Assembly (NCBI RefSeq): GCF_026571515.1
Contig: NW_026856555.1
Location: 62,001 to 126,000, forward strand
Length of the DNA stretch: 64,000 bases
DNA from: Ruditapes philippinarum
Lineage: Eukaryota
Direction: 5' to 3'
The notes beneath the pieces are model-generated. The model worked only from the letters and a program-made list of their open reading frames with translations, searched no databases and was not told where the DNA came from. The position numbers and the translations under genes are program-made. This document shows, piece after piece, positions 25,644 to 61,635 of the stretch; the first letter of the stretch is position 1, and the number at the start of each line of letters is the position of its first letter.

Positions 25644-27980
25644 ATGTTTACAATTGTAAATTATCCTCAAGTTCATTATCATCGGAGGGACGCCTCGGAG
25701 CCTCGTCCTGAGATTATCAACCATCGGAATGATCCAGACAGTAAAAGATGGTCCGAGAAGTTGCGGAATGAAGAGACAACTTATAAACATCTGAAACAGC
25801 ACCGCGATGAACTTCTAGAATCAGAGATAAGATATAAAAAGACCATTAAACAATTGGAGAAAGAAAAGGCAGAGCTTATCAAAATTTATGAACCTACATA
25901 TGATGAAAATAAAGTACTGAAAAGTATTATAGAGCACGGACCGGATGCTGTTAAGATGAAAAAGTTACGTAAGGCCAGGAAAGAGTTGGGTGAAGAAGTA
26001 GATACACTAAAAGATGAAAATAAAAGGTTAACAGAGCAAATGCAAGAGCTGATAAAGAAAAATGAACCCATGAGAGATAACTTATTAGAAAAGAATTGGC
26101 ACGATGTCCTTTCCGAAAGTAAGAAAACGAAAGAAAATGAAACTGTAGTCGCACAGGGACCTTTTCCCGCAAAAGATAATGAAAAGGGTAAGAAAGTCCC
26201 GGAAAAGAAAAATATGAAGGAAGACGACGAGTATGATTTACAATTAGATACTGTCGAAAAAGAAATTCAGATATTGTTAAACAATGTGAAATATATAAAG
26301 AAACAGAAAGAAAAACTGGATTATGCTATCTTGATGAGTAAAGGTGCGATCGTCAGAAACTCTGTTCTAGAGAAAGCAATATATGACAAACTAGATGAAG
26401 ATTTAACAAAATTTAAAACCGAATTGGATATTGCGAAAAGTAAACACGATGATATAAAGGAACAAATTGAACAAAAAGAGGAAGATAAGGCCAAACTTAA
26501 AACAGATCCTGTAATTAATTCTGATAATAAAACAGGAAGTGAAAAAACGATGGTTTTAGATCAACCTGAAACGTACACAACAAGAGAAACACAAACGGAA
26601 ACTTTAACTGAACAGAAACCTGTTGAAACAGACCAACATAAAGTAAAGAAAAAGCGAACAATAAAATCAAATTCAAATATTGCTGTACAGACCGATTTCC
26701 CAAACGTTTTAGATTTAAAGAGCATAAACCAAGAAGCTATGAAATATATAGAACAGTATGAAATCAAGAAATCCAAAATACATGAAGCTAAATTTAGTAT
26801 GTCAGAGAAAGTGTCTTCAACTCAAACGCGTAAAAACTATGCAAAGAAATTGGTAGTTAGGCGACAAGAAAGTCCAATGATGGATCGGACGTCAAATGAT
26901 AGTATGAAACAAATAAATAAGGTATTTCTTAATAGAGTAGATCAACCTCGCAAGAAAGTTCAGATGCCAACTAACGCACAGAAGAGAATGGACGAGGCTT
27001 TATATGCGAGGGAAGAAGAGAATGTGGACATAGTCGACAGGTCAGCAAACAAGGAGAAGAAAAGAAGTAAGTCACTTGCTGCAACTGGTGGTGATAGCGC
27101 TAACAGAGTTGTGAAACAAATTAACAGTCAAGGGAAAATCAAAGATAAACAGCAGCTACCGACTAAAGACGTAAGCCATACAGAAGAAACAGTTCCAATG
27201 AAATCAAATCAGAAACTAAGTAAAATGAACAGAAATACGCATGTTGAACATTTGCCTAGACTTAGAAATACAAACATGTCCTATGCACAATCAAATTTTC
27301 AAAAATCCAAGATTGAACCAAAGAGTGTTGATCAGTTGAAGAGGGAACAGGATATCTATGATTATGAAAACATGATTATGAACCCAAAAGCAAATGTTGC
27401 GAATCCAGCAGGAAGACTGCAAAAACCTAAACTCGATCGAAACCGGCTTGGTAATATAAAACAGTCAAGATTTAAATCAAAAAGTAGTTTAGATATCAAT
27501 CAAGCATCGACACATTCTAGAGCATCTGCTAGGAAACATAGGCTACCTGTTACTTTACCACCTATAGATAGGATTTCAATAAGGTCAGGATCTGTAGACT
27601 CGTGGAAAAGCGAAAGCGACTTACCCGTCTTCTCAGAGAGTGAAACTGGTTCAATCAAACCGATAAAAGATTTCAAATTAGTCATCAAAAAGAAGAAGAA
27701 TTTAATGCATTTAAGAGGTGTGCTTGACGGAGAGGTTATTGAGAAACGAGACGAAAGTGCGTATGATGAGGTGCTGCATGATCTGCACAACCAACAAAAG
27801 CAGTCTGCAAGGGATGTTTATCAAGAATTTAATAACACGGTGCATAATTTTCGCGATAAAAAATATAACGCTAATGAGAAGCAAAAACATACGAAGAAAA
27901 GACACGAACCTCCTTCAGATATCATAGAACAGGCACCATTAACATTTATAGAAAGACCATCTTTGGAAAGGGAATTATAG
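25644..27980 (+). CDS. Uncharacterised coiled-coil protein, cluster member CC1 (778 aa)
   Basis: Long ORF; first in-frame ATG lies after acceptor tatttcttcag| (25612); N-terminal ~270 aa align with CC2/CC3; low-complexity tail; AATAAA at 28001. Confidence 0.9.
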   Translation: MFTIVNYPQVHYHRRDASEPRPEIINHRNDPDSKRWSEKLRNEETTYKHLKQHRDELLESEIRYKKTIKQLEKEKAELIKIYEPTYDENKVLKSIIEHGPDAVKMKKLRKARKELGEEVDTLKDENKRLTEQMQELIKKNEPMRDNLLEKNWHDVLSESKKTKENETVVAQGPFPAKDNEKGKKVPEKKNMKEDDEYDLQLDTVEKEIQILLNNVKYIKKQKEKLDYAILMSKGAIVRNSVLEKAIYDKLDEDLTKFKTELDIAKSKHDDIKEQIEQKEEDKAKLKTDPVINSDNKTGSEKTMVLDQPETYTTRETQTETLTEQKPVETDQHKVKKKRTIKSNSNIAVQTDFPNVLDLKSINQEAMKYIEQYEIKKSKIHEAKFSMSEKVSSTQTRKNYAKKLVVRRQESPMMDRTSNDSMKQINKVFLNRVDQPRKKVQMPTNAQKRMDEALYAREEENVDIVDRSANKEKKRSKSLAATGGDSANRVVKQINSQGKIKDKQQLPTKDVSHTEETVPMKSNQKLSKMNRNTHVEHLPRLRNTNMSYAQSNFQKSKIEPKSVDQLKREQDIYDYENMIMNPKANVANPAGRLQKPKLDRNRLGNIKQSRFKSKSSLDINQASTHSRASARKHRLPVTLPPIDRISIRSGSVDSWKSESDLPVFSESETGSIKPIKDFKLVIKKKKNLMHLRGVLDGEVIEKRDESAYDEVLHDLHNQQKQSARDVYQEFNNTVHNFRDKKYNANEKQKHTKKRHEPPSDIIEQAPLTFIERPSLEREL

Positions 27981-28389
27981 TAGAAGTAGAAAAAGACACC
28001 AATAAATTGATAAAACTTTTTTTTTAAGCACCATATAAATCTTGATATTTTATTCAGTAAGTGTGTATGCTACTAATAACACAGCAATTAAAGTGAACGA
28101 ACGCAGTGAAAAAAAAAATATAGTTATAAACTTCCATAACTTCAACACAATGCAAAACAATTCAATGTCATGTAATTTAAAGTGATTTAGTACAAAATAA
28201 TATAATACAATACTTAATATTCAATGTAATACTTGATACTATGTTCTTAAAACTAAATAATCTAGATATTCGTAGACTCACACTATACCAAGGTGTCTTC
28301 ACATATAAATAAAAAGATTCTTTCCCACAAAAGTTTGAGGAGTTCTTCAAAACAAATTTAATTCTATCAAATTGCAAGGTTCGTGGCTT

Positions 28390-28745
28390 TTTTACCAAAA
28401 CATTATTATCATATTTTATCATATATATCATCTGTAATTATGCGCAGTAAAGTTTCGTAATCAAGGCCGATAATATCAGACACTTCCGAAAAGTCAGTCT
28501 TCGGTCGACTTTAAAAGTTCGTTGAATCGACGCCAAAGATGATGTCCTCTTTGTTCTTTCTCGGCCATACCTGTAGTCATCCTCTAGGTCAGTCCTTCCA
28601 TTTATTAGCCTTTTTATGCCATTTAAGTACCAGTGCGCGGCTCATTGAAACATTGCATCTGTTCTTCTTCAACATTTAAAAGTTTCCCTAGGCCTTTGCC
28701 TTAATCCTGAACAAACTGTTTGTCCGCGCGATTTTCAGGTCGTTC
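28390..28745 (-). pseudogene. Decayed mariner-type transposase, N-terminal DNA-binding region
   Basis: Across frameshifts the minus strand reads ENRADKQFVQD*GK / MSRALVLKWHK / R.INGRTDLEDDYRYGR / DRRLTF / EVSDIIGLDYETLLRIITDD. This follows the mariner pattern EQRa.iKF..lGK..SR..VfeWhkRF..GResleDd.RsGRP..DRRlT.reia..gis...Il.edL. Confidence 0.7.
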
Positions 28746-30005: not shown

Positions 30006-30007
<2 letters not shown>

Positions 30008-31214: not shown

Positions 31215-33572
31215 ATGTTCACAGTCGTGCCGAAACCCGAGGCTCCTGATATTGAAGATTACCAGCCTGCTAAAGGGGAACCGGCACCACAAATAATAAA
31301 CCACCGCCAAGAAAATCAAACTCATAAAAAGAAAAAGGCAACATACGAAGATATAAAGGAACAAAGAGATAGTTTACTTGAATCCGAAATGAAGTATATC
31401 AAGAGAATAAAAGAACTTGAAAAAGAGAAAGAAGACCTACTTAAGCTGTACGAACCAACTTACAAAGAAAACAAACAGCTCAAAAGTCATTTGATGCACG
31501 GACCAGAATCACAAAATATAAAAAAGTTAAAACAAGAGAAGAAGAAAATCTTGAGCGAATTAGAAATAGTGAACACAGAAAATGCTGAATTACAAGACAG
31601 AGTAAAGGAACTAGAAAAAATGTTCCTTTCCGAAAAAGATTATTATCGTGAAAAGAAATGGCGGGAAGCAATCGAAAAGGGACGAAAGAGACGCGAAGAA
31701 AAAGATACCTTACTGTCAACACAAGGGCCGTTTGCCTCTTCAAGAAAACCGAATAAGAGAGATTTGAAATCTGTTACTGACGAAGAGTTCGAAAAGCAGG
31801 ATGCTCATGATTTACACATCGACACACTTGAGAAAGAAACACAGATACTTTTGAATAAAATAAGAAGAATGAAGCAAAATAAAGGAAGCATAGATTATGC
31901 TTATTTTATCGGAAAAGGAGCAATTACCAGAAATTCATCAGTAGCTAAGGCCATCAACGAAAAACTAGATAAAGATCTGGAGGAATTCGAAAACCGCCTA
32001 GAAAATTTGAGACAGAAAACTAAACAGCTTAAGGATATTTCTTCAGAGGATTTGGAAGTACCAGTTGAGACAGCACAAATTAAACAAACTGGGAACAAAT
32101 ATTTTCGAACACGACAAACACAAACTAATTTAGTTGATGAACAAATACGAACGAATCCTCCCTCTAACAATAATAATTTAGGTGATAAACAAGGCATATC
32201 AAAGCCGATTGCGGAAACACGAAACATTTCGACAAAGGAGAGCAAGAAAAGACAGTTGATGATTAAAAGAAATACTCCAGATTATGACATAGTTCATGAT
32301 AAATATCATGCATCTGATGATATACGTACATTTACTAGACCTCACGCGAAAGAAGTTACTCATGAATCGTATGAAGATCAAAGTGCAACGAAACAGGGGT
32401 CAAGGAATATAAGACGAACTCCGGATGAAACTGAAGGTTTTGGTTCACCTATTGCGGAACATTGGCGCCATCTAACCATAAAGCTAAATGAAGTGGAAAA
32501 GTTTGGCGGTAAAACACCCTTTGCATACAGAGATAAGACTAAAGGGAGGGCATCTGTTCAGTCAAGTAGTTCAAGAAGACAAGAATCTATGTCTTATGTT
32601 CCGAAAAGAATACCGTCAACTAGACCGAACTCTGAAGAAATCTTGTCTGCCTCAGCAAAGAGTCGCAGAAGTGCAAATTCAGAAATTTCTAAATCTAGTT
32701 CTAGAGATTTATCCCCGCAACTTTCAGCCAATTTAGAATCAATGTCTGACATTGACGAACTAGATTATGAATGTGGTGCTGACGATATGTTGGACACTAA
32801 AAAGGAAATTAATATTGTTGAGTCACTAGAGAAGGCACAAAGAAAAACAACTAATTTGGGCGAAGAAATCCGGTTTATACCAAGGCAACGTAGCTGGGAA
32901 ACGGGGAGAAATGCAAGATGTAATAATGAACAAAATGGAAGATACGCCAACGGTTTTGAACCGATCAGTCGCTATAGGAAAACGAACAAAAAGTCTAATG
33001 ATGCTAAACTTATTGAAGGTGAAACTAAAACCATGATTTCAAATGAAAAAGGTACGTCAGATGATCAAAGTGAGGCAATTAATGAGAGTGGAATAGCAAA
33101 AGATGTAAGGTTTAAGCAGAGGACATATTCTGGTGATAAAATAAAACGAAACACACAGGCGATGCCTTCTGAGCTTAGATTTAAAAATAGAAACACAAGA
33201 GATTCAAAAGTTCCAAGGGCAAAGGGATTGACAGAAGATAATCGAAGACATGCAGGAGAGGCACCGGATGAGGAAATGGTTTCTTCACGAAACATTTCTG
33301 CGTATGACGAAGTGTTAGCCGATGTTTCAAAGCAATACAAAGATCATGAAAGAAGACAAATGTTTCAGTCGAGAGTACAATATAAAAACGAGGATAAAAA
33401 CGATTATGACCGGACGCAACAAACCAGAAATATAAATGATGAACACGGAGTTGATTTGCCTAACTACGGGGTTAAACATGTTGAGAAAACAGTATTTGAA
33501 AAGGGACAAGGAGGCGCGTCTGTAAGCAGTGGAAAATCCCGTGAATACATTTACAATTTAGATCTGTTATGA
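31215..33572 (+). CDS. Uncharacterised coiled-coil protein CC2 (785 aa)
   Basis: ATG 31215 (MFTVVPKP) follows acceptor acattccag| (31199); shares IINHR, RDSLLESE.KY.K.IKELEKEK, HGP, TQGPF, EKETQILLN, IDY...GKG.I.RN and AYDEVL with CC1/CC3; AATAAA at 33585. Confidence 0.9.
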   Translation: MFTVVPKPEAPDIEDYQPAKGEPAPQIINHRQENQTHKKKKATYEDIKEQRDSLLESEMKYIKRIKELEKEKEDLLKLYEPTYKENKQLKSHLMHGPESQNIKKLKQEKKKILSELEIVNTENAELQDRVKELEKMFLSEKDYYREKKWREAIEKGRKRREEKDTLLSTQGPFASSRKPNKRDLKSVTDEEFEKQDAHDLHIDTLEKETQILLNKIRRMKQNKGSIDYAYFIGKGAITRNSSVAKAINEKLDKDLEEFENRLENLRQKTKQLKDISSEDLEVPVETAQIKQTGNKYFRTRQTQTNLVDEQIRTNPPSNNNNLGDKQGISKPIAETRNISTKESKKRQLMIKRNTPDYDIVHDKYHASDDIRTFTRPHAKEVTHESYEDQSATKQGSRNIRRTPDETEGFGSPIAEHWRHLTIKLNEVEKFGGKTPFAYRDKTKGRASVQSSSSRRQESMSYVPKRIPSTRPNSEEILSASAKSRRSANSEISKSSSRDLSPQLSANLESMSDIDELDYECGADDMLDTKKEINIVESLEKAQRKTTNLGEEIRFIPRQRSWETGRNARCNNEQNGRYANGFEPISRYRKTNKKSNDAKLIEGETKTMISNEKGTSDDQSEAINESGIAKDVRFKQRTYSGDKIKRNTQAMPSELRFKNRNTRDSKVPRAKGLTEDNRRHAGEAPDEEMVSSRNISAYDEVLADVSKQYKDHERRQMFQSRVQYKNEDKNDYDRTQQTRNINDEHGVDLPNYGVKHVEKTVFEKGQGGASVSSGKSREYIYNLDLL

Positions 33573-33670: not shown

Positions 33671-35384
33671 TTCAAAATTGTAAATCAATATCAAGAATCA
33701 AACTGGCATACATTTTCCATTTGGTCGAAATCTCAACTATATTTTAAGATTTCTTTTATCAAATTATATATTGTTTCAGCAATTTTTTATATTACAGGGG
33801 AAAAAGAAATAAAATGTAAAAAAAAAATATGTAATCTGTGTATGTTATGTTTTCTTAGATATTTACTCGTTTTGACATGAATTTTAAATTTAAACTTCCA
33901 TTAAATGGTCTTGATTTTCATTTTGTCTGGAATTGGCCGATTCAAGGGATACTATCCTCTAGTCTTCAGAAGATATTTTCACAATTTTAGCATATGAATA
34001 CTCTACGACATGTAAATGTCATCTTTTGGAATGTAATACAACTTTGATATTCGAACAGTTCATTTCAGGTCAAAACTATATTTATAACTTAAAGAAATAT
34101 ACACATATCTGTCATGATTTGTTGATATATTTATTTTAAAAACCAAAAGGCTGAGCAGCCAGTTGGTCAGCGGAATCAACACGCACGCATACAAATTAAC
34201 AAACAAGTTAAAAGGTTTTCCTGTGGGGATAAGTTTAAATGATTTAAAGATATCTGGTGTAAGTGTTTTCTAAAATGTTTGGAAAAAAACACGTTTGTAT
34301 CAAAAATATAGTATCAATAGAAGAAAGTCTTTGGAGTAACCGGTGACTGTCGAAGACCGGAGACCGGAGAGGATCGTTTAGTAGTACACCCCCGTCTTTT
34401 TGAAATTCCTCTTGCTGATACAGACTACAGTTTACATTTAATTCTTTTTTTTTTAATTGGACTTGAATATTCTTTTAGGTAATGATGCTTTATAAATCGC
34501 ACATAACTACGGGCACTTACTATAACGACATGAAAGTATGCATTTTTATGTATCTCCTTGTAGCTACACAAACACTCGCTATGAAATAAGAAATTAAATG
34601 AGCTCTCAGAATATGACATATGTTAAAAGATGCGCTTTGTTGTATTTAAAATTTAACAAAAAGAACTAATTTGCCTGGTAGCGGTAGTCTTGAATTACCA
34701 ATCTCGTTTTAATATAATTAAACAAACAATTTTCTTTTCATTTAAACAATAGCGGTATATCGGATTCCATTCGATCTTCACTTGCGGCATTCTTTTAATA
34801 AAACACAATCATATGGTTGAGTTGTCGCAAAATTTAAATACTCCATTTTAAGATGGGACATTTAAAGAATAACAATAATGACTTAACGCCGGAAAATTTT
34901 TGTTTTGAGAATTGGTAAGACTTTTCAATATTAGTTATATTTTATGCCATAAGACAAAATTTTTCAATCATTTAACAGTAAATACATAAATCATGTCATC
35001 TAACTAAATTACTAACATGCACATGTATTACTGTTTAATGACTTTGGTTAAAGTTCAAAATATTCATGCATCGGACTAATTTATCAGATTTCCCTTATAC
35101 TTAATTTTACTATAGACTAGTAGGGTTTGGGTAATAATTATTTTTGAATAAACATATATATTTATATTCACAATATTGTGAAAAGATTACCGGATAAGTG
35201 GAAAGATTATATTATAGTAGTTACACGAGTAATTAAAAAACGTCTCTATAACAAAACAATAATTACATATGATTGTAAAATCAAAAGTGTGTCACTCACA
35301 TAATATGATTGACGAATATAGTTTTTAAATTATTGTATTTCTAGGTAACTCATCTTCATGTTTACTGAGGTCAATTAAAGAAAC

Positions 35385-37109
35385 ATGTATACGGTGGTAA
35401 ATCGTCCTGAGGTGGAGGAACATGAACGACAACCGGGAGAACCATTACCATTGATAATTGATCATAGGAAGGGAGATAAGTGGAAAAATCGTCACCGAAA
35501 GGAACAACTCCCATACGACACACTGAAAAAACACCGTGATACACTTTTAGAATCAGAAATAAAATACAAGAAGACAATTCGTGAGTTGGAAAAGGAACGG
35601 GATGAACTCGTTGCTACCTACGAGACTGCTTATCAAGAAAACAAACAATTGAAAAGCATTCTTGAACATGGTCCAGATGCAGCGAAGTTAAAGCAGCTAA
35701 ATAAAGATAAAAAAGAGCAAAAAGGTCTGATAGAAAAACTTCAGGAAGAAAACAACGAATTGGGAGAGAGGTTAAAGCGGTTAGAAAAGATTGAAAAACT
35801 AACTGATCCAGGCAATATTATGCTTGAGAGAAATTGGAAGAAAGCGTTGGACAAAGTGAGAAAGATGAGAGAGGAAGAGGAGGCTATTCCAACGCAAGGT
35901 CCATTTGCTGGTGGTAAACTTTTTAAGAAGAAGCGCATTGCAATAGATGATGCCCAGGTAGAACTTGATACCTACGATCTACAATTAGATTCTGTTCAAA
36001 AAGAAACACAAATTCTTTTAAATAAAGTAAAACAACTCAAACGCGAAAAGGAACAAATCGATTATTCGCTGATTATGGGTAAAGGACATGTAGTTAGAAA
36101 TGCTGTTGTTGCAAATGCAATAAGTGAAAAATTAAACAGGGACTTGAATAAATATGCAATACGCCTAGAAAAGCTTAAGCTTAAGCATAAAAGTGCAAAG
36201 ATGTACGTAGAAGATGTGAGAGTTGTCCTTGGACATCCAATCAGAAGGTCATTTGCAAGTCTACCGATAGAGGTCAAATATCTTGAGCCAGTAACGCCGC
36301 TAAAACCCGATTCTGCAAATTTGAACGAAAATGAAAAGAAAGATGATACGCCACCTAAAGAGAAAAAAGTTCCTTGGTCTTTATCTACGAAATTATCGCC
36401 CCCTGAAAACAAAAAGCAGCCTGTACCTGAGAGAGATAACTGGATACCACCAAAGCAGTTTGAAAAACCAGGAACATATACAAAAATCCATCAAAAATCT
36501 GGCCCGCCATTAGATCAAAAAGCTACGCAAAATGTTTCATTGAATTCATCCGATGTCAACGACTCATTAGACAAAGGAGAAACAGTAAACCTTAACTTCC
36601 GAGATGACATGCGAATACAAAAACCAAGGCATAGAATAAAAACTTCAAGCCAAGGAAGTCTCATACGAACAACAAAAGCTCAATCTATGCGTGATTCCTG
36701 GGTCAAAACAAAGGATGCTTCAAACAAAACTGGTGGTCCAAAGACCAACAACAATAATTCAGCTAAGAGAAGAAACAGTTCAAAGACTGTAGATAGTAAT
36801 CTGAGGTTTGATGAGACAAACAACAGAGTTCAGTTGACAGCAAGGACTAATAAAACCTTCCCAAATAACCGACCTGTCTACCGACAACGTAAACCGGAAG
36901 TTAAAGATAATGAGACATACGACGATGTGCTTGAATCGTTAAAAAGTCAGACGTATTCCGTTCGTGAACAAATGGATCAAAATTTTGCATCTCCTGAACC
37001 TATTGACTTTAACGGCGATGGGCGCAATGTGCATCGAGGGGATATGTATACTATGGGGAATACTGGGATAAGAGACAAAAACTTCTTACCGGTGAAATTT
37101 GTTATGTAA
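35385..37109 (+). CDS. Uncharacterised coiled-coil protein CC3 (574 aa)
   Basis: ATG follows acceptor tgtatttctag| (35344); HRDTLLESEIKYKKTIRELEKE, KSILEHGPDA, TQGPF, YDLQLDSVQKETQILLN and TYDDVL align with CC1/CC2. Confidence 0.9.
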   Translation: MYTVVNRPEVEEHERQPGEPLPLIIDHRKGDKWKNRHRKEQLPYDTLKKHRDTLLESEIKYKKTIRELEKERDELVATYETAYQENKQLKSILEHGPDAAKLKQLNKDKKEQKGLIEKLQEENNELGERLKRLEKIEKLTDPGNIMLERNWKKALDKVRKMREEEEAIPTQGPFAGGKLFKKKRIAIDDAQVELDTYDLQLDSVQKETQILLNKVKQLKREKEQIDYSLIMGKGHVVRNAVVANAISEKLNRDLNKYAIRLEKLKLKHKSAKMYVEDVRVVLGHPIRRSFASLPIEVKYLEPVTPLKPDSANLNENEKKDDTPPKEKKVPWSLSTKLSPPENKKQPVPERDNWIPPKQFEKPGTYTKIHQKSGPPLDQKATQNVSLNSSDVNDSLDKGETVNLNFRDDMRIQKPRHRIKTSSQGSLIRTTKAQSMRDSWVKTKDASNKTGGPKTNNNNSAKRRNSSKTVDSNLRFDETNNRVQLTARTNKTFPNNRPVYRQRKPEVKDNETYDDVLESLKSQTYSVREQMDQNFASPEPIDFNGDGRNVHRGDMYTMGNTGIRDKNFLPVKFVM

Positions 37110-41201: not shown

Positions 41202-42272
41202 TCAAACTATATATTTTGAAAGACTTTCCAAATGACTGGATGACAGAGATTGCATATCCTTATCTTTTGATTGCTGCCTTTTCAACATACGCTTGTACAA
41301 TTCTCTGTACCCGAGACCGTATCTTAAAAATGGAATCTCTGGCGACTCTTTTGAAAATGATGAAATGAACCCCGAACGCTTTTTCTCTGTCACATGAACA
41401 AAAGAATCACTCTCAATCTTTGGGAGAAAAGTTGGAATACTTTTCTTATTTATCACTATTGTTTCTGTTTTGGACTTTACACAAGTAGATGTTTTAGCTA
41501 TCTCCGGGTCTCTGGCTTGTACTTGTGTTTCTAAAACCTCCAACTTAGAAATAAGCCATTTGTTTTTATTTTTTAATTTATCTAGTAAAGTTTTAAGCCT
41601 TGCATTTTCACTTTCGAGAGTTTTAAGTCTCTCAGAACTGGTTATGACCACCAGCTTGTCTAATGGGTCTTTGTATTTTACTTTATCTGTTTTGACATTT
41701 CGAAAACAATCTACATCTTTTACATAATGTCTTAACATTTTAACTTCATCTTCCAACCTTTTAATCCGATCCTTATACGTCTTTACTTCTTTCTTTATAT
41801 TTCGATTACTTTCTCTATTATTTTCATAAATTCTTAGCTCTTTATTCTCATCTGTTAATTTTCTTATTTTCTCTTTATTCCGAATATCCTCTTCTTTAAG
41901 TCTATTTCTCTCTTTAGAAACTATATCATAAGGTTCGTTATAAATATCAACGTCACTTCCATTTCTTTCGTATTTATCCCGCAACCCTTCTATTTCCGAC
42001 TGTGATTCCTCAAATGTTTTAAGTAAAGAAATAGTACCATTTTCTAACTCCTTAATGCGCTTTCTGTAACCATCCTCCGATATTTCTAGTTCCTCGATCT
42101 TACGTTTGTACTCTTCCTCCAAGTTAAGCATTTCCAAACGTTCCTTGCATATATCCTCATACCACAATATAAATCTTTCTTCCGCTTCTTTGTCAGAGAG
42201 TCCAGTTCTCGTTTCAAGCATATCAAGTTCACGATGAAGATCATCTGTGCTATCATTATAATCCTGTTCCAT
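41202..42272 (-). CDS. Uncharacterised coiled-coil protein CC4 (356 aa)
   Basis: First ATG at 42272 (MEQDY); acceptor gtatttttttaacag| at 42381; has WYEDICKERLEMLNLEEEYKRKIEELE and PYDIVSKERNRL modules; shares S.KEAE.RF.LWYE.I with CC5. Confidence 0.85.
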   Translation of the reverse strand: MEQDYNDSTDDLHRELDMLETRTGLSDKEAEERFILWYEDICKERLEMLNLEEEYKRKIEELEISEDGYRKRIKELENGTISLLKTFEESQSEIEGLRDKYERNGSDVDIYNEPYDIVSKERNRLKEEDIRNKEKIRKLTDENKELRIYENNRESNRNIKKEVKTYKDRIKRLEDEVKMLRHYVKDVDCFRNVKTDKVKYKDPLDKLVVITSSERLKTLESENARLKTLLDKLKNKNKWLISKLEVLETQVQARDPEIAKTSTCVKSKTETIVINKKSIPTFLPKIESDSFVHVTEKKRSGFISSFSKESPEIPFLRYGLGYRELYKRMLKRQQSKDKDMQSLSSSHLESLSKYIV

Positions 42273-42989: not shown

Positions 42990-43700
42990 TTAGTAACCCT
43001 CCTGTGAGCATATTAACACGCCTGTAAATATGACAATAACACTCCTGTGAATATAACACTACCCCCTGTTGTGAATAAGGGAATACCCAACTGTGAATAT
43101 TAACATTAACATTCCCGAGAACATTTCAATGACATTCCTGTGAATGTGAGAATTTCACATTTGTGAATTTGTCACTACCCCCTTCTATGAATATAATCAT
43201 TGTAAAATTCCTGTAAATGTAATGATAACACTCCTGTGAAGATTATACTACACCCTTCTGTCGAGATAACTAGTATAACACGCCTGTAAATCTAACAACA
43301 ACACTCCCGTGAATACCACACTACCCCCTCCTGTGTATTAAGCAAAAAAACTACTTTGAATATAAGAATAACGTTCTCGTGGACATATCAATAACACTAC
43401 TCTGAATATGACAATCACACTCTTGTGAATATAGCACTAACTCCTCCTGTGAATATAACAATAGCACCGAAGATAATATAACAAAACTTTATGTGAACAT
43501 AGCAATACCTTCTTCTGAATGTAACAATTCCCTCCAGACATGTGAATATAACAATTAACTCCCATGAGTATAACAATAACACTACTGTGAAAAATGCAAT
43601 ATCGTTGCCGTAAAACATAGTAGAACATGATAAAAAAAAGCAGTAAAACATTATGTGAACAAAGCCAAACACTATTTTAATCAAACAATAACATTATTGT
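42990..43700. repeat. Degenerate ~21-23-bp minisatellite (CTCCTGTGAATATAACAATAACA-like)
   Basis: Roughly 30 decayed units with recurring ctgtgaatat. Confidence 0.85.
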
Positions 43701-45680: not shown

Positions 45681-46604
45681 ATGGACATTGTTTCAAATGT
45701 AAAATCAAAAGAAAACAGTGTAGAAGATAATGAAAATATTGTTCAAAATAATAAGAAAGATAATACAGAAAAATTGAATAAAGATGACAACGAACACAAT
45801 AACGGAACAGATGATAAGATATCGCAGCAAAATATGAAAGTGTTGCATGATTCGGATGTTGAATGTCAATCAAGCGAAGAAGAAAACATTGAAACAATAA
45901 GCGGAAAGGAAGCGGAGACTAGATTTTTGCTTTGGTATGAAGGCATACAACGTAGGGAGGAATGGTACAAAAGACGAATTGAAGAATTGGAAAAACTTGA
46001 GGAAAAATATAAACAAACAATTGCAACTTTAAAAAACAATGATGAAAAATTACAACAGAGATACTCTAAGGCGTTAATTGAAATCAAAGTGCTAAGAAAA
46101 AAGAACATGCTGCCTTCAGATGATAAGGAATTCGTGGAATCTTATATATCCCTGTCTGCTGAAAGAGAAAATTTAATTATATCTTCTCGTGAAAATAGTG
46201 ACACGATCAAAAAGCTTAAAAAGGAAATGCTTACTATGAGAACGAGGTTAAATTCAAATCATGCAAGAAACCCTGCACTTCGAAGCGTTTCAACTCAAAC
46301 AAAAATGGACAAGTTTCCAACACATTACTCACAGAGTGTCAAAACTGAAACTGATGGAAATAACACTCTCCTGAAACATCAAGTTAGTGAAGCGAAACAA
46401 TTTGGAGGAGGACAAATTGTCAGATCTAAAGCAAACTTTACTTATTCAGCCTCGTATTCAAACGAAAAAGTACAGGGAAAAGAAAGAAGGGAGCAGGTTA
46501 TTGAAAATAACGTTAGGAGAAATCGGCAAAGAAACAAAGAAAGTGAACCGATTTATTTTCCAGATATACGACAGAAGCCAGATCACATGATGTGGAGATA
46601 TTAA
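45681..46604 (+). CDS. Uncharacterised coiled-coil protein CC5 (307 aa)
   Basis: ATG 45681 follows acceptor tttctctaacag| (45666); ISGKEAETRFLLWYEGI..YKRRIEELEKLEEKYKQTI aligns with CC4. Confidence 0.85.
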   Translation: MDIVSNVKSKENSVEDNENIVQNNKKDNTEKLNKDDNEHNNGTDDKISQQNMKVLHDSDVECQSSEEENIETISGKEAETRFLLWYEGIQRREEWYKRRIEELEKLEEKYKQTIATLKNNDEKLQQRYSKALIEIKVLRKKNMLPSDDKEFVESYISLSAERENLIISSRENSDTIKKLKKEMLTMRTRLNSNHARNPALRSVSTQTKMDKFPTHYSQSVKTETDGNNTLLKHQVSEAKQFGGGQIVRSKANFTYSASYSNEKVQGKERREQVIENNVRRNRQRNKESEPIYFPDIRQKPDHMMWRY

Positions 46605-47127: not shown

Positions 47128-50010
47128 CTTCATTATTAATCAATCATTATATCTTTAAGACAAAATAGAATAAACATGCCAATAAAGCTGTTAGCCGATT
47201 ACATGGTAATGTAAAATGAATATTTTTCTGATTACTAGGGAGTGTGGTAAATGTTAGTATTAGACACTATTATTATATCAAACTAGATGATCCTAAGAAT
47301 ATCTTCAATTAGACTTTATGGTTATGGCTTTTGGCCTAGCTTTATACATGTACTGGTTGAAAAAGCTGCTATAGGTTATAAGCTCAACAAACCCTAGAGA
47401 TGCTATTATTTCATACAGATATATTTAATTTTATTTTGTTTTTAAAACTTGTTTTTTTTTTATTTGACACGAATGATAAAAGAATAAAAAGCTGAACAAA
47501 AAGGTTTTGTTTAAAAAATAATCGAAACACTTCTCCCAGTATGATATCAGATACATAAATCTGTTTCCCATTGTATATGTAAATGGTTTATAGCACATTG
47601 TTCAAATAATGTTAAAAAGTATTAATAATTCAGACGAGTCTATGAAAACAACCGATTACATGCCTGACAATAAATGTTAAAACCGCTGGTGGCAGGAGCC
47701 TGTAGAGCTATTTTATCTAAATCAATGGAGCCAATAAAAAATATTGAATAGAGCACTGATATAGACGTACAATGATTTTTAAATGAGGGATTGACGTGGT
47801 GATTAGGAGCTCTGTTACAGATAAATTGACTATAAATATTTGAGAATACGCCTTTGGTAGTTTTAAAAAGAGAGGATTTTGTAAAATTGATTCATAATTA
47901 ATTCATTTGTCGCTTGAAATTCAAAGCAACTTTTGATTGTTTGAGTTGTTTGCAATAATTTTCTGTGAATTAAAATCTTTATATCAGTGATTTCGTTAAA
48001 TTTCAATGTTAAATATTTTCAGACATTAACGTAAATGTAATAAAAACGTTTTACGTACGCTGCATATTTGTTCATCAATGCAATGTTGAATAAAGTTTAT
48101 AAAACATTTAAAAAATGCAAAACGTGCATAAAACGTCGAATGCCACTACAGCCCACAATCTATTGGTAAGGTAAAACTCCATTTTGATACTAGGGATAGT
48201 GGTTTCGAGCCCTACTCGGAACAGTTCAGAAACAAGTATAAATTAATTTAGGATGCTTACTGATTTATATCAAATACTTTGTAAAATATACATAAATCCG
48301 GTTAATACCGGCAAGTACATACTATCTCCCATGCATAGATATTATCTTTTCTTCGACCTCATGTCATTCTTTGATATAAAAATTAAAGATGATTAGAAAA
48401 ATCATTTTCTTGAATAAATAAATATCTTAGAAATAAGCTCTATAACATGACTGTTGTGTGGCCTTAACTAAATTATATATCTGAAGTACTTAAAAAAGCA
48501 ATTTTGAAATCTGAGTTGGAGTCATCAGTGGGTCACAATAATATTTCTTATTTGAAACCAGTGCTGGTATGACAGAAGCTGATTCAAAAGTTATTTGAAC
48601 AAAATACAACATTCCTTTCAGAGCTAAATATGATGAAAGAAAAAACATAAGTCTTCCATCACGTCAGTTTGCGATTATATGCCTAGTATGTGTGTTATTT
48701 GTATTTGCTTTGTACTGCTTTGCTTTACAGTTTTACTTATTATGTTACCTTGAATAAATATAGAAATAACTGCTTCAATAATTTGTTTGCAAAGCATGAT
48801 ACGCTCTTGATGAAAATAAATGGTAATTTCGATTCCTCGGGAAAAAATCAAGTTATTTCCCTTTGAACATTTTAATGTATTCAATGTTTACTATTAATCA
48901 GTTTTCACCACTTTTTATTTCACTTATTTACAAACATGATCGGTATATTGTTTTAAAGAGTAGCACTATAAACTTGAATAAATAAATATAATACACTCAA
49001 CAGATACGTTTCAAAATTGAACAGAAAAAAATACAATGCAATCAAAGATCGAAAGAGTGATTCCATTCAAATTGTTTGCTGACATTTTGTCTAAATGAAA
49101 GGAGTCATGTTTCAATTTTTTAAACAAAATGGCGTCATGCACTTGATTTTAATTTTGCTTCATGAAGTTTTCCTTTTATTTATATTTTAAAATTTTACAA
49201 GGATTCTTAATTCAAGGTTTGTCGACAATATACTTAATTATCAATTAGAATGATTACCTCATAATGAACTTGTTCATCAAAAGCCGAAACATTAGGGAAT
49301 TATTCAAGCCACGGATACTGCCACAATGTTACAGTAGTCGCTGACCATAAAGGATCGCTAAATATCGTAAGTGAAAACACTTAGTAAATAACAAATTGAA
49401 TTATTCAATTTGATAAAATAAATTTATGATATTTTACTTTTTTAAAATGATGCTATGATACACAAAAAGCAAAAAAAATCAGTAAGTTAAATGGAAAGAA
49501 ATGAATACGCGCATATGATATTAATTCGTATAAATTTTCGCTAAAAGTTTTATAATGCATTATTGCATTCCTTGCTAATTAGTAGTTTAGTTTAAACATC
49601 GTTTATTTCAAACAAGTATACACATTCACAGAACCGTTAGGTGGTACTTACATAGATCTTATCCTAATATTAATTTGCTAAATAATGGCAGTGTGTAAAT
49701 GTATGTACATGTACTTGAATATGTTAAAAATTACGGTGAGTTAATTTTTAATTAGAAGAATTTTTATGTTGTATACAAAACATATGAATATACATTTGGT
49801 TGGCAGAACTTGTTAATACTTAGTAACGACTTACATATAAAAGTCGCTTTCAAAACGGTATTATATTCCTGTGATATAAAGTGGTGAATGTCAGCGTAAT
49901 TTTGGCATTATCTGAACTAAATGAAAAATGTGTTTTATAGAACTTTATGCATGTATTGTATCTCGTGTTTTTTCTTGTTATATTTCAGGATTGTTAACAG
50001 AGATTAAAGT

Positions 50011-51513
50011 ATGACTACCTCATACAGCCATTATCCACCCCCAATTAAAAAATTCGGAGATGGCAGTACATTTGATAAGGCTGCCTATGCTGCTTATGAA
50101 GCCGTTAAATCCGAAAGAGATGCTCTAAAGGAGATTGAAAAAACCTCTAAACGTAGAATAGAAGCTCTTGAAAAAGAGACTGCGGACTTGCTATCCTCCT
50201 ACCAAGGAATATATGATGAAAACAGAGTACTGCGTAGTAAAGTTGAGCATGGTCCAAATGCACAGAAAATTCGCAATTTCCGAAATGAAATTAAACGATT
50301 AGAGGAAAAGGTTTCAGCACAAAGAACTGAAAATAATATGTTAAGTGAAGAAATTGCATCGTTGCAAAAACAATTTAATATCATATCTGAGGAAAAGAAA
50401 AGAATTGATGATGCCTTTAAGATGGAAAGATCGTTGCATATTGAGAAAACGACTAACGCTGAGGAAGAAAATAAAGATTTATACGCAAAGATAGAGAGAT
50501 TAGAAAGACAACAAGAAGAATATGAAAGAAGAGTAAAGAACTATGACGAGGAATCTGAAGGGCTACTTAGTAGATACAAAGAACTTAAACGAGACAATCT
50601 TAAGATGGAGACGAAATTCAAGAAACAAAAGGATATGGCAGAAGAAGAAATTCGTGAAACGAAAGAGTTAAACAAAGAAATGGCTAAAGAAATAATTGTG
50701 CTTAAAACAAGACAAGCTAAACTGCAGGCAGAATTTAATTCAGTAAAGTTGGATTACCAGGCGGCCGAGAAACAAATAGATTATCAAAATAAAGAATTAG
50801 ATGTTTTTAGAACCCAATCTCAACTTTTGCATAGGAACGTGAAAATATCTGAACGTGAATACAACTCAATGAAAGAAGAGCTACAATCAGTTGAAGAAAT
50901 GCTTGTTGACGCAAGGAATTTCGGCTTTGAATCTGTCATTGACGAAAGAAGAAACCTGAAAAAGAAAGAAAGAAAGCAATTTAAACGTATCGATGATTTA
51001 GAATTGCAAGTAGAAGAATTAACTAGGGAAAATAATGACTTAGAAAAAGAAGCAAACGAATACAGGCGTAAAATGGAAGCAGCAATCATTGAAAGGGAAA
51101 ATCTCCTTTTTGCAGAGACAACTTTAAAACGAAGAATAGAAGTATTAGAAAATGCAAATATTGATCTGGACAGGCGAACAAAGTTTATGTCTAGCAAAAG
51201 CAAAACGGGACTGGTTGTTAAAATGCCAGACGAGAATATCAAGAACTTGGAGAAAGAAAAGGCTTCTCTATTTGCAAAATGTCGATACCTCGAGACACAG
51301 AATAGGCGTTATGCAAGGCGTATCAAAGAACTAGAAAATGGAATGGAAATTGATGACTTTGATAATGAAAATGCATCTCGTCTTTTCAAATCGAGAGTAA
51401 CATCGGACCACGTGCTTCATGCCGATATGCCAACTTTGTCCAATAGAGATCCAAAATCATCATATCGACGAAAAGCCAAACTCCCTAGATCACTTCCAGC
51501 TCCTTCTGTTTGA
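50011..51513 (+). CDS. Uncharacterised coiled-coil protein CC6 (500 aa)
   Basis: ATG follows acceptor ttatatttcag| (49988); AYEAVKSERDALKEIEKTSKRRIEALEKE..YQGIYDENRVLRSKVEHGP aligns with the CC1-3 core; two more module copies near the C-terminus. Confidence 0.9.
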   Translation: MTTSYSHYPPPIKKFGDGSTFDKAAYAAYEAVKSERDALKEIEKTSKRRIEALEKETADLLSSYQGIYDENRVLRSKVEHGPNAQKIRNFRNEIKRLEEKVSAQRTENNMLSEEIASLQKQFNIISEEKKRIDDAFKMERSLHIEKTTNAEEENKDLYAKIERLERQQEEYERRVKNYDEESEGLLSRYKELKRDNLKMETKFKKQKDMAEEEIRETKELNKEMAKEIIVLKTRQAKLQAEFNSVKLDYQAAEKQIDYQNKELDVFRTQSQLLHRNVKISEREYNSMKEELQSVEEMLVDARNFGFESVIDERRNLKKKERKQFKRIDDLELQVEELTRENNDLEKEANEYRRKMEAAIIERENLLFAETTLKRRIEVLENANIDLDRRTKFMSSKSKTGLVVKMPDENIKNLEKEKASLFAKCRYLETQNRRYARRIKELENGMEIDDFDNENASRLFKSRVTSDHVLHADMPTLSNRDPKSSYRRKAKLPRSLPAPSV

Positions 51514-56477: not shown

Positions 56478-57536
56478 TTAGTCATAGACTTGTGAATCAG
56501 GAAGCAAATATTCATAGTCAAATTTAACAGGCCTCTCTTCAAAATTTACATGTTGTTGTTTATTTCCCTTTGGAATACTTTTAAAATCCTTTGTGAGTCC
56601 CATACTTTTGACATTTTTACGTGCAATTTGATGTTCTAATTTCTTGATTACTTTCTTCAATGTATCATTTTCAGCTTGAACTTTTTTCACCGCTTCTCTT
56701 TCATTCGAATTTTCAAATTCTCGAAGAGTGTGTTTCAGAGATTCATTTTCTGTCCTAAGTTTCTTTAATTCTGCTTTAGACCTCTTTTCTTTTGTAATTC
56801 TATCTTTTTCTTCAGCTTGACTTGTAGGTTTAAATTTTTCTTGAAGAGCTTTAAGTTTGTCTTGAAACTTATCACTTTCATTTTGCTTTTCAATTATTTC
56901 TTTTTCCAGCCTTATAATTCTTTTCTTATAACCGCCTTCTGCCTCCCTTAGTATCCTTCGATCTTCGAAAACTCTACTGTATGGTTCAAGAAGCGGGTCA
57001 TTACCTGTATCCATTTTCCGTCTTAATCTTTCATTATCCTCGTACAACTTTGTAAACTCTCCAAGTACTCGTTCAACTTCTTGTTCCAGCTCTGCTATAC
57101 GTTTCTCGTATTTTTCATTTAGTTCTAGAAGATGCGCCCTCTCATCCATAAACCCTTCATATTGCTGCACGTTCATGATCTTGATTGTTGGTTTATTTGA
57201 CTCAGCCCCGTTCTCTAAAGTTTGTTTTTTCACATTCTTCTGCCTCAGATTACTTAAAGCTATTTGGTTCTTTTTAACTTTCCCTGATTCGAGATCTTTT
57301 GATTTTTCCATCCAAGTCTTTTCGTCTTCAAAATTGTTTGACTCATGTTTATCGTGTGAAGTATTGTTTTCCTCGTGTTTATGCTTAATCACTAAAACAT
57401 CTACATCTTTTGGTATCGGTTTTCTTTTAGACTTCGGTTGTGTTTTTAATTTGTTGTCTTCTAAAGAGGGTATTTTATTAAACTTTGCCCGAAATACTTT
57501 GCTCTTTGCAGGTATGGTGCTTGCAGCATTGCTCAT
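56478..57536 (-). CDS. Uncharacterised coiled-coil protein CC7 (352 aa)
   Basis: First ATG 57536 (MSNAAS) follows acceptor tttttgaatttcag| (57546); two modules, YEGFMDERAHLLELNEKYEKRIAELEQE..LYEDNERLR and PYSRVFEDRRILREAEGGYKKRIIRLEKE. Confidence 0.85.
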   Translation of the reverse strand: MSNAASTIPAKSKVFRAKFNKIPSLEDNKLKTQPKSKRKPIPKDVDVLVIKHKHEENNTSHDKHESNNFEDEKTWMEKSKDLESGKVKKNQIALSNLRQKNVKKQTLENGAESNKPTIKIMNVQQYEGFMDERAHLLELNEKYEKRIAELEQEVERVLGEFTKLYEDNERLRRKMDTGNDPLLEPYSRVFEDRRILREAEGGYKKRIIRLEKEIIEKQNESDKFQDKLKALQEKFKPTSQAEEKDRITKEKRSKAELKKLRTENESLKHTLREFENSNEREAVKKVQAENDTLKKVIKKLEHQIARKNVKSMGLTKDFKSIPKGNKQQHVNFEERPVKFDYEYLLPDSQVYD

Positions 57537-59579: not shown

Positions 59580-61635
59580 GGTTTCTTCGAAAATAAAAAA
59601 TTAAGAAAAAAGGTTTTTTGGGAAGGAAAGAAAGCCCCAAAATCGAAGCCCAAAATTGAGATTTTTTAAAACAAGAAAAAGAAAAAATTTTTAAACAAAA
59701 GTATGCCCGAAAAAAGGGGGAAAAAACAGGGAAAATTTGAGCATAATTTTAATTTTATTTAAAAAAAATCTGTTTTCCCAAACTTACTTTAAAAAAAATC
59801 AAGCTTTTTTAAAAATCAACTTGATACAGAAGAACCATATGAGAAAATTTACAATGAAAGAAAACAAGCTTATGTCAGGAAAACGCGGAAAAACACTTTA
59901 AAAAAATTAAACACCTTGAAAACGAACTATTGAGAAGAGAAAAGAGGGAAAAAAATGATCAGAAATGCTTGAAGCGAAAAAGTAGAGACAGAAGGAAGGA
60001 GAAGACCTTCTTAAAGACATAGAAAACACAAAAAAGATAAAATTAAAAAAACTTGAAACTGACAAGAGAGAAAAGCAAGAAGAAAAAATAAAGGAACTTG
60101 AAACTGAGAGAGAAGAACTCGAAACTCAGAAAGACGAGCTACAAAAGAAAAATGACGAATTTGAAGATGAATTTATCAAAATGAGAGAAGATTTTGCCAA
60201 AATAAAGGCTGAGAAGGAAGATGTTTTAGTAAACATTAAAAAGAAGAGAAAATAATGACCAAATTGAAACGGAAACAGGGCAATAACATTGAAGGATCTT
60301 TAAGGGCATCGAAAAAAAACGAAAATCGAAACCAAACTCCGATTGGAATGCTTATTAGAAAGTGAAGCATTGAAGTCTGAAAATGAGTCTTTATTCCGCG
60401 CTAACGAAGCAAAGAAAGACGAGATAAATGAAATTCAAAAAGAAGTTGCCAGTATAAAAAAAGAGTTGCAACTAGAACAACTCAGATATCATAAAATAAA
60501 GCAAGAATGGGATGAGGAAAAGAGTAGGACAGAATTTGTACTAGTTAGCAAATCTGCTAAAAAGAGGCACCAAAGGGGTTTAGAATCATCTTTAAAGGAG
60601 GAAAACGACTCGGAGGATGAACATGTTGTCGGAGTTTTAGAAGCTGCTAAACTGGAAAAAGAATCTATGATTGCAAAGGAGAATGAGCTTAAGAAACGCG
60701 TGAAGCAACTCCAAATTGACAAGGATGAACTTTTCAGGTCTGGAACAACTTTGTTCGCTGAAAATAAAACTTTGAAATCAAAGTATGACCAAATTATAGG
60801 AGAAAGATCGATGCTCCTTCAGGTGGAAGCAGCTCTAAAACGGAAAGTGAAAGAACAGGAGGATGAAATGAAAGACTTAAAAAAGACTATCGATGATTTA
60901 TATTATCAGAACATGGCGATCAGAACAAATGAAGAAAACGAAAATAAAAAAAGTTCATATGTAGTTCTTATGGGTAATGAGATGATTAAAAAGCTTGAAC
61001 GCGAGAAAAGCGCATTACATAGACGAGTAAAGTTTTTGGAGAAAGAAAATAATGAAATTGAAACAAGAGTTGTAGAATTGGAAAGACAGTCAGCAGATCT
61101 TGTCAACTATTCAAAAAAGTATGACAAATATTCCACATTTCCAGAATCTAATAGAAGTAGAGACAGCAGTTACATAGAGAAACCGTGGTCCCGGGGTCGA
61201 GATAATAGAGATACCGTAAGGTCACATGATCGTGAAAATAGAGACACAGCAAGGGGACAATATCATCATAACAAAGAAACTCCACGTTCCCGGGAAAGGG
61301 TAAACGATAGGACAAGAGAGCCTCCTAGCGATAGAAACCCGCATCGTTTATCTGGTCGTGATCAAGGAGGAAGAAGACACCTTGACCAGCGCCCACCATC
61401 TGAAAAAATGATGTCGTTTCACGAATACAGAGAAAAATCAAAATACGGAACAGGTGTTCCAACAAAAAGCCCCGATTACTACAAAAATAACATGCCACCG
61501 TTCGCTAACGCTCCTTCAAGACAGCCAAGTATGATGGCACCTCCAAGCATACATTCCGGGCAAGGTCATGACTCGAGGTTTTCATTTCCTCCACTAGGAT
61601 CTCGGACTGCCCGCTCCCCGAGACATGGACATTAA
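59580..61635 (+). CDS. Uncharacterised coiled-coil protein CC8; 3' ~430 codons intact, 5' ~760 bp disrupted (assembly error or pseudogenisation)
   Basis: Acceptor tttatttgcattttcag| at 59579. Remnants EPYEKIYNERKQ (~59832) and KIKELETEREELETQKDELQKK (~60085) lie upstream of the intact ORF, which carries YDQIIGERSMLLQVEAALKRKVKE and MIKKLEREKSAL (cf. CC6). Confidence 0.7.

What the first reader, a model, noticed from the sequence alone, without database searches (positions are those of the whole stretch)
25770..60870. A shared ~28-residue (four-heptad) module present in 1-3+ copies per protein
Seen: CC1 YKHLKQHRDELLESEIRYKKTIKQLEKE; CC2 YEDIKEQRDSLLESEMKYIKRIKELEKE; CC3 YDTLKKHRDTLLESEIKYKKTIRELEKE; CC4 YEDICKERLEMLNLEEEYKRKIEELEIS; CC6 YEAVKSERDALKEIEKTSKRRIEALEKE, FESVIDERRNLKKKERKQFKRIDDLELQ and MEAAIIERENLLFAETTLKRRIEVLENA; CC7 YEGFMDERAHLLELNEKYEKRIAELEQE and YSRVFEDRRILREAEGGYKKRIIRLEKE; CC8 YDQIIGERSMLLQVEAALKRKVKEQEDE; CC5 has a shortened copy. 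Y1, R8, L11, E15, I22 and L25 keep their register. In CC1-3 and CC6 the module continues to Y.EN..L.S...HGP. Inference: a discrete, possibly undescribed domain or assembly-trigger unit amplified both within and between genes.
Basis: seen in the sequence. Interest (0 to 1): 0.7.

Follow-up and report, generated by a model that had tools for sequence, protein, structure and literature searches.

The report
Fifty-residue module marks mollusc coiled-coil family
Eight neighbouring clam genes share a real helical module of about 50 residues (longer than first reported) that marks an uncharacterised family of rod-shaped proteins in bivalves and snails; the module likely starts and aligns the pairing of these rods, which may serve as scaffolds in ciliated surface cells.

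Summary
The module is real, but the unit is 50 residues (seven heptads) plus a short hinge, not 28. All ten quoted 28-mers are in the window. A profile built only from other species' homologues scores CC1-3, CC6a, CC7a/b at 27-73 bits, against at most 10 bits for clam myosin-rod exons and 21 for any PDB chain. CC4 and CC8 copies score 16-26. CC5, CC6b and CC6c fall in the null range; only pairwise paralogy supports them. The cluster continues past the window (CC9, CC10), and an eleventh paralogue lies on another contig. Of 106 hits among 1.84 billion proteins, 93 carry the module; named carriers are bivalves and gastropods. No Pfam family passes its cut-off. An A-hinge-B pair, mostly 60 residues apart, probably predates the gene duplications (weak tree support). 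The core has conserved polar residues and an R-h-x-x-h-E motif. It likely starts and registers a parallel coiled coil; dimer versus trimer is untested. CC3 and CC6 are spliced. The oyster orthologue of the off-cluster paralogue rises with tektin and FoxJ1 in pallial cells and is not male-biased. Verdict: an undescribed lineage-specific coiled-coil family, role inferred.

The parts
25644..27980 (+). CC1, one coding exon, 778 aa; module A at 25782-25931 followed by HGP
   Evidence: 64 bits
31215..33572 (+). CC2, one coding exon, 785 aa; module A at 31344-31493 followed by HGP
   Evidence: 60 bits; a 2344-base contig covers 31356-33693 in run X1
34805..35344 (+). CC3 untranslated first exon (from about 34805 to 34914) and GT-AG intron 34915-35344
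   Evidence: one contig of run X6 joins 34916 to 35351 with 4 other letters between; splice ends read from the sequence
35385..37109 (+). CC3, 574 aa; module A at 35514-35663 followed by HGP; helical to about residue 281, then low confidence
   Evidence: (73 bits)
41202..42272 (-). CC4, 356 aa; module A with a 14-residue internal duplication (41970-42161), eroded module B (41781-41930), C-terminal LPxI...GYxxLY motif
   Evidence: (26, 16, 11 bits)
45681..46604 (+). CC5, 307 aa, paralogue of CC4; shortened module A (about 45936-46103) and eroded module B (46143-46292)
   Evidence: profile scores within null; pairwise 44.7 bits against shuffle maximum 30.4
49146..49988 (+). CC6 untranslated first exon (from about 49146 to 49366) and GT-AG intron 49367-49988
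   Evidence: spliced contigs in runs X1 and X6, two studies
50011..51513 (+). CC6, 500 aa; module A at 50095-50244 with HGP; two eroded copies 49 residues apart at 50926-51075 and 51073-51222
   Evidence: 54, 8.0, 11.4 bits; colinear with CC8 and its orthologue P0084
56478..57536 (-). CC7, 352 aa; module A at 57012-57161, hinge, module B at 56832-56981 (60 residues apart)
   Evidence: (38, 27 bits); contigs cover most of it in X1 and X6
59600..60303 (+). Frame-broken 5' part of CC8 (approximate left end), with one more module copy starting near 59838; breaks lie in A-runs, likely assembly errors
   Evidence: (intact 626-aa orthologue P0093, 82% identical over the open part); cause not proven
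60304..61635 (+). CC8 open frame, 443 aa; two module copies 49 residues apart at 60637-60786 and 60784-60933
   Evidence: (18, 24 bits)
14724..15845 (-). F-box/LRR gene exon flanking the cluster (not a member; likeness to FBXL16 is recalled)
   Evidence: Pfam F-box and LRR_6 over cut-off

Best explanation
The repeat is a homologous 50-residue, seven-heptad helical module that marks a family of at least 11 paralogous coiled-coil proteins in this clam, with relatives in bivalves and gastropods; it likely acts as the segment that starts and sets the register of a parallel coiled coil, and the proteins likely serve as cytoplasmic scaffolds in ciliated surface epithelia. Shown: the unit and its borders, its specificity against generic coils, the cluster of ten genes plus one elsewhere, the conserved core (a: Y1 R8 E15 I22 x29 Y/F36 N43 L50; d: V4 L11 Y18 L25 L32 L39 L46), and splicing of CC3 and CC6. 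Predicted: one long helix per module, with a non-helical hinge between A and B. Inferred: (i) chains pair in parallel through the module, where polar a-residues (R8, E15, N43) and the R21-E26 g-e pair would fix register and partner choice; I put a dimer at about 0.6 and a trimer at about 0.25; (ii) paralogues that share the module could form mixed rods; (iii) disordered ends, basic in most members, and the LPxI...GYxxIH tail of CC4, 9, 10 and 11 would dock the rods on a cytoskeletal partner; (iv) an ancestral A-hinge-B gene was duplicated in tandem and copies were then eroded or lost; (v) the working place is ciliated epithelium, about 0.4. The module itself I put at 0.95; the number below is for the whole account.
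For: Independent profile: 27-80 bits for the nine strong copies, shuffle maxima 4.8-20. Background: best 9.7 bits over 46 segments (7,061 aa) from 12 myosin-tail loci and one unrelated long coil of this genome; best 10.2 over 13 remaining rods and tails (11,325 aa) of family members; best 21 among 177,635 PDB sequences. Genome search with the CC10 pair: 11 of 12 matches are family copies, 10 of them in this cluster. 93 of 106 hits among 1.84 billion representatives carry a module of 20 bits or more. Register and conservation over 121 dereplicated copies. R-h-x-x-h-E at 21-26 in 85 of 121 copies, against 6 in about 1,334 heptads of the remaining rods of 12 members. Spacing of 60 in 34 of 47 pairs. 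Model: helices 2-52 and 61-109, mean pLDDT 89.9, pTM 0.40. A second shared motif at the C-terminus of CC4, CC9, CC10 and CC11. N-termini are hydrophilic, with no signal-peptide-like stretch by eye. Oyster CC11 orthologue LOC111117697: log2 fold change +2.67 and +5.23 in pallial-mucus against circulating cells; tektin-3 is +2.80/+3.99, FoxJ1 +3.1 to +4.7, paramyosin -2.79/-3.95 (PMC13070813 supplement rows). It is not sex-biased in gonad, where testis kinases and protamine-like genes are +5.7 to +7.7 (PMC12040131 supplement rows).
Against: The expression evidence concerns one gene, CC11's orthologue in an oyster, not the window's genes; 3,139 genes rise in the same contrast, secretory and shell genes among them, so it does not single out cilia. 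No X-box-like site lies at the two mapped 5' ends (motif recalled). Raw RNA runs X23 and X24 (4-5% read) show only background depth over CC1-4. Oligomer signals conflict: the R-h-x-x-h-E motif favours trimers though it occurs in some dimers (PMC3653964 passages), while long polar core residues fit dimers better (PMC13580157 abstract). One apparently non-molluscan protein, P0113, scores 40.5 bits, a streptococcal M-protein stretch fits the first 40 positions at 20 bits, and 13 of 106 library hits are unrelated repeats, two of them at E below 1e-10. The A/B split has only 75/90 support; the AU test rejects within-gene duplication for CC10 (p 0.029) but not for CC9 (0.064) or CC7 (0.256). In CC9 orthologues the module (0.77-0.84 column identity) is no better conserved than a later rod segment (0.83-0.86). 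In the CC3 model the helix runs on through HGP. The motif count is partly circular, since copies were chosen by a profile that holds the motif.
Confidence: 0.45

Rival explanations
1. The module is a docking surface: a preformed coiled coil whose conserved outer residues (E13, K19, K20, R21, E28, E42, R47) bind a common partner such as a motor, a small GTPase or a microtubule-associated protein, so the family would be adaptors or tethers.
For: Several non-core positions are well conserved (K19 67%, E42 79%, E28 64%). Tandem copies keep a fixed spacing. The module was kept while rods and tails diverged.
Against: The strongest conservation is at a, d, e and g positions, as expected for chain pairing; b, c and f positions vary most. 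No Pfam adaptor family passes its cut-off. This reading and the best explanation can both hold.
Confidence: 0.25
2. The window's genes are male germ-line structural proteins (sperm tail, centriole or acrosome), as single-exon, fast-evolving coiled-coil genes often are (general knowledge).
For: Single coding exons and divergent tails. Runs differ: X22 holds next to none of CC3's words while X11 of the same study holds 0.64 (tissues not given). A clam study reports that over 70% of hub genes in a fast-evolving male-gonad module are unannotated (PMC9803972 passages); I did not link these genes to that module.
Against: The one member with data is not male-biased and is listed in gill; it rises in pallial cell samples whose lists hold no testis-specific kinase.
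Confidence: 0.2
3. The module has no special job: it is the ancestral start of the rod, and it is shared only because the genes are paralogues.
For: In CC9 it is conserved like other rod segments. Several copies are eroded to the null range.
Against: It is the one rod segment recognisable across all subfamilies, in bivalves and gastropods, and keeps polar core residues that a drifting coil would be expected to lose.
Confidence: 0.08
4. The pattern is generic heptad convergence, not homology.
For: P0113 at 40.5 bits, M protein and leucine zippers at 15-21 bits; the 28-mer alone is weak.
Against: Genomic clustering of the best matches, fixed spacing, a second shared motif and pairwise paralogy above shuffles.
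Confidence: 0.02

Closest known systems
Coiled coils with the Arg-h-x-x-h-Glu trimerization motif and trigger sequences (coronin-1, engineered cortexillin-1, GCN4 variants; PMC3653964, passages read)
   Same: R(g)-I(a)-x-x-L(d)-E(e) in the defined register is the best conserved part of the module; the module sits at the start of the rod in most members.
   Different: It lies in rods up to about 1,200 residues with Arg, Glu and Asn at a positions; oligomer state and trigger activity are unmeasured.
bZIP leucine zippers (HY5, GCN4, Jun)
   Same: Positions 17-50 match zippers weakly (15-21 bits), with an E-N pair at g-a.
   Different: No basic DNA-binding region; bZIP_1 scores of 10-17 bits against a cut-off of 27.6.
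Long cytoskeletal coiled-coil scaffolds (rootletin, CENP-E, girdin, myosin rods, trichohyalin), after which databases name the members
   Same: Long rods with disordered ends; the oyster member moves with a rootletin-like gene in one contrast (+1.69).
   Different: The names differ from orthologue to orthologue, as automatic labels do; no motor, globular or Pfam-defined domain passes.
Centrosomin motif 1 (Cnn_1N, PF07989)
   Same: One scallop member has a sub-threshold match (25.7 against 28.5 bits).
   Different: The match is at residues 101-161, outside the module (15-64), and is absent from the other 11 proteins scanned.

Membership tests
Generic coiled coil (myosin, paramyosin, tropomyosin rods) | Profile scores generic rods as high as the copies | tested here: not met
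   9.7 bits at best for this genome's myosin-tail loci, 21 for any PDB chain, against 27-80 for strong copies; tropomyosin and paramyosin were not scored as separate sets; exception P0113 at 40.5
Coiled coil (fold) | Continuous heptad pattern and helical prediction | tested here: met
   d positions 69-98% hydrophobic; helices 2-52 and 61-109
R-h-x-x-h-E trimeric coiled coils | Motif in g-a-x-x-d-e register | tested here: met
   85 of 121 copies; definition from PMC3653964
R-h-x-x-h-E trimeric coiled coils | Parallel three-stranded state | not testable with these tools
   needs light scattering, ultracentrifugation or a structure
Coiled-coil trigger sequence | Indispensable for folding; forms a helix alone | not testable with these tools
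   defined by experiment
bZIP | Basic region ahead of the zipper; Pfam bZIP_1 over 27.6 bits | tested here: not met
   positions 1-16 are mixed acidic and aromatic
Centrosomin CM1 / Spc110 | Cnn_1N over cut-off, on the conserved segment | tested here: not met
   1 of 12 proteins, 25.7 below 28.5, outside the module
MYPT1-type PRKG1-interacting zipper (lead recalled) | PF15898 match | tested here: not met
   3 of 15 rows, best E 0.11
Motile-cilium structural proteins | Co-expression with the FoxJ1/tektin programme | tested here: inconclusive
   same direction and size for one off-cluster orthologue, in a contrast with 3,139 raised genes
Motile-cilium structural proteins | RFX X-box at the promoter (consensus recalled) | tested here: not met
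   none at the mapped 5' ends of CC3 and CC6; 5' ends of the others unknown
Motile-cilium structural proteins | Sequence match to chains of solved axonemes | tested here: inconclusive
   none among the 60 of 68 rows shown or the 14 rows
Motile-cilium structural proteins | Location in cilium, basal body or rootlet | not testable with these tools
   needs staining or proteomics

The most novel reading that the evidence does not exclude
The eleven paralogues are subunits of one mollusc-specific filament system: a shared pairing module with a polar code lets them assemble in defined mixed coiled coils, hinged at fixed spacing, that build a ciliary rootlet-like or apical scaffold of gill and mantle cells, much as keratin or septin paralogues build theirs.
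Probability: 0.12. Interest if true: 0.75.

Novelty: new member of a known kind. Interest (0 to 1): 0.4.

Why it matters
It turns a set of genes labelled at random as myosin-like, rootletin-like, CENP-E-like or uncharacterised into one family with a usable profile and two shared motifs. Orthologues of most cluster genes are kept across heterodont bivalves and one member reaches snails, so the family is old and maintained. If it scaffolds ciliated cells it would bear on gill pumping and feeding in bivalves. The 50-residue module, with conflicting dimer and trimer signals, is also a cheap natural test of coiled-coil rules.

Tried and rejected
Complex prediction of two copies of the CC9 A-B pair gave no verdict (0.22, mark 0.32); three copies were not tried. 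Foldseek on PDB: no match. VIA-align: best Z 6.6, long helices only, uninformative. ESM Atlas with a CC9 orthologue: nearest clusters were unnamed or generic coils with 93-138 shared features. Sequencing runs: no RNA holder listed on record; CC4 and most of CC5 are without contig cover in the runs laid, which proves nothing. Promoter scan: no X-box at the two known 5' ends. Literature: six member ids gave 0 papers; 'pole body component 110' with scallop 0; general searches listed no description of the family, judged from listings; LPxI searches gave only unrelated papers. Supplements without hits: PMC11978232 (12 of 17 files searched, two more too large), PMC11556341, PMC9210306; files not seen may hold tissue data. 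Earlier findings: four look-ups, nothing on this family. Recalled leads dropped: TANK/NAP1, MYPT1, CM1 and ELLEn-module likeness; none passed a Pfam or PDB test. Oyster genes numbered near the F-box gene were not used, as I had no sequences for them.
Full report
Setting. The window is G000:C5042:62001-126000 of a 1.41-Gb genome. The nearest named homologue of CC3 is from Mercenaria mercenaria (75% over residues 1-300), so the animal is a venerid-like clam. Eight long single-exon frames, CC1-CC8, follow an F-box/LRR gene. None of the eight has a Pfam match over cut-off.

Check of the observation. The ten quoted 28-mers are present and align without gaps. A seed profile from CC3 homologues showed that the likeness runs on to about position 50. 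I then built a profile from 48 copies in 32 proteins of other assemblies (16 CC3-like, 16 CC9-like with two copies each; P0014 and P0020 left out) and scored this genome's proteins: CC1 64, CC2 60, CC3 73, CC6a 54, CC7a 38, CC7b 27, CC9 80, CC10 65 and 39, CC8 24 and 18, CC4 26, 16 and 11, CC6c 11, CC5 9.5 or less, CC6b 8. Shuffles that keep heptad phase reached 4.8-20. CC1-3 and CC9 had close orthologues in the training set, so their scores are favoured; CC4-8 and CC10 did not. The weak copies rest on paralogy: CC5 aligns with CC4 over both modules (38% over 118 columns), and CC6 aligns with CC8 and its orthologue so that CC6b and CC6c face the two CC8 copies, both pairs 49 residues apart.

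The 50-residue profile gives at most 9.7 bits on 46 segments from 12 myosin-tail loci and one unrelated coil of this genome, and 10.2 on the remaining rods of 13 members. A profile of 15 own-genome copies gives at most 21 bits in the PDB. In the genome, 11 of 12 matches to the CC10 pair are family copies; the twelfth (E 0.36) is a generic coil. Among 1.84 billion representatives, 106 pass E 0.001; 93 hold a module of 20 bits or more and 13 do not. One of the 93, P0113, comes from short metagenome contigs, has no species name and is probably convergent. The 28-mer alone is much weaker.

Extent of the family. The cluster continues beyond the window with CC9 (about 1,540 aa if its two exons join, as orthologue lengths suggest) and CC10 (807 aa), then a GPCR-like gene. 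CC11 lies alone on contig C5185. Best-match orthologues exist for CC1-4 and CC6-11; none ranked CC5 first. Of 30 proteins looked up, 11 clusters carried a species name: Crassostrea, Ylistrum, Mercenaria, Mya, Dreissena, Haliotis, Biomphalaria; add Mactra, Mizuhopecten and Mytilus. All named carriers are molluscs, but most hits are unnamed, so the range is a lower bound. The named oyster, mussel, scallop and snail members are all of the CC11 type. Neighbourhood is partly kept: CC1 and CC3 have near-adjacent accessions in Mercenaria, CC9 and CC10 adjacent ones in Dreissena, and one Mya model fuses CC9 with CC10. CC3 and CC9 are about 1,100-2,000 locus numbers apart on one chromosome in Mactra and Mya, which suggests a split cluster there (inference from numbering).

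Anatomy. Over 121 copies dereplicated at 80% from 170 ungapped ones, d positions are hydrophobic (V4, L11, Y18, L25, L32, L39, L46) while a positions mix hydrophobic and polar residues (Y1, R8 76%, E15 72%, I22 86%, Y/F36, N43 69%). The module is often preceded by E-[S/P/T] and followed by HGP or a D/G-rich hinge. Neighbouring copies are 60 residues apart in 34 of 47 pairs and 60-66 in 43. AlphaFold2 gives two long helices with a loop between and low pTM, so no fixed hairpin is predicted. For CC3 it gives helices to about residue 281 and a low-confidence tail, without a break at HGP. R21-I22-x-x-L25-E26 fits the published trimerization motif in register (PMC3653964, passages), in 85 of 121 copies against 6 in about 1,334 other heptads. 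The same paper says the motif also occurs in dimers and acts only inside a trigger sequence. Long polar core residues are easier to place in dimers (PMC13580157, abstract only), and Asn at a favours parallel dimers (general knowledge). I therefore favour a dimer. A second motif, LPxI followed 10-40 residues later by GYxx[IL][HY] and basic residues, ends CC11, CC10, the one-exon form of CC9 and CC4 (scores outside the CC11 class are low, 5-17 bits, and CC9 itself is seen by pattern only).

History. In a tree of 34 copies from the CC7, CC9 and CC10 classes, first and second copies fall on two sides of one branch (75/90). Holding both copies of a gene together is rejected for CC10 only. With the shared spacing this favours one old A-B duplication, then gene duplication and erosion; it is not proven.

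Expression. Contigs of runs guessed to be RNA cover CC1 (in part), CC2, CC3, CC6, CC7 and CC8, and show a GT-AG intron in the 5' leader of CC6 (two studies) and of CC3 (one contig). Two raw RNA runs show background only over CC1-4. Tissues are not given. The only labelled data are for the oyster orthologue of CC11: listed in gill and gonad without sex bias (PMC12040131; one section, passages and supplement rows), and raised in pallial-mucus cells together with tektin and FoxJ1 and opposite to paramyosin (PMC13070813; passages and supplement rows). That points away from sperm and muscle and towards pallial, probably ciliated, cells, for that one gene.

Assembly. The 5' parts of CC8 and CC9 are frame-broken in G000, while a 100%-identical protein (P0020, over the searched part) and an 82% orthologue (P0093) are intact. 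Assembly error is likely; decay is not excluded for CC8.

Verdict. A real family-defining module, longer than reported, in an apparently undescribed molluscan coiled-coil family (searches: and those under Tried and rejected; Pfam). Lineage-specific coiled-coil families are a known kind of thing, and the function is inferred, so interest is moderate.

Noticed in passing
L006:6455-L007:2388 and L007:5252-7675 (contig C5042, about 131,455-141,675): CC9 and CC10, two more family genes just beyond the window; CC9 has a likely intron near L007:1419-1727, and read-through of the first exon ends shortly after the LPxI motif, so two C-termini are possible.
   Followed up: partly
L037:6556-9999 (-), contig C5185: CC11, a lone paralogue of about 1,190 aa and the member with the widest named range.
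   Followed up: yes
L042:7566-9998 and L037:925-3456: Two tandem single-exon genes of 810-844 aa with many hydrophobic segments beside CC11; family not determined.
   Followed up: no
G000 contigs C10287, C322, C15662 (L046, L048, L050-L056): Several tandem genes with myosin-tail matches in large exons, at least three sets on each of two contigs; may be an expanded rod-protein family.
   Followed up: no
window 22795-23325, and 21931: An Arg/Ser-rich repetitive frame right after the N stretch, and a palindromic X-box-like site at 21931.
   Followed up: no
window 24.3-24.6, 38.3-40.2, 46.9-47.1, 52-55, 57.8-58.6 and 62-63 kb: Short elements with very deep read cover, evidently high-copy repeats, between the cluster genes.
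   Followed up: no
window 9014-9858 and 43014-43591: Tandem arrays of 41-bp and 23-bp units.
   Followed up: no
L009:1649-2659, L012:7504-8877, L013:1646-3571, L014-L016: A GPCR-like gene, two genes that look like coiled-coil plus NHL-propeller proteins, and exons of a PDZ/phosphatase gene downstream of the cluster (by eye).
   Followed up: no
P0037: An unnamed 350-aa member with three module copies, and P0152, a Mya gene model that fuses CC9 and CC10.
   Followed up: no
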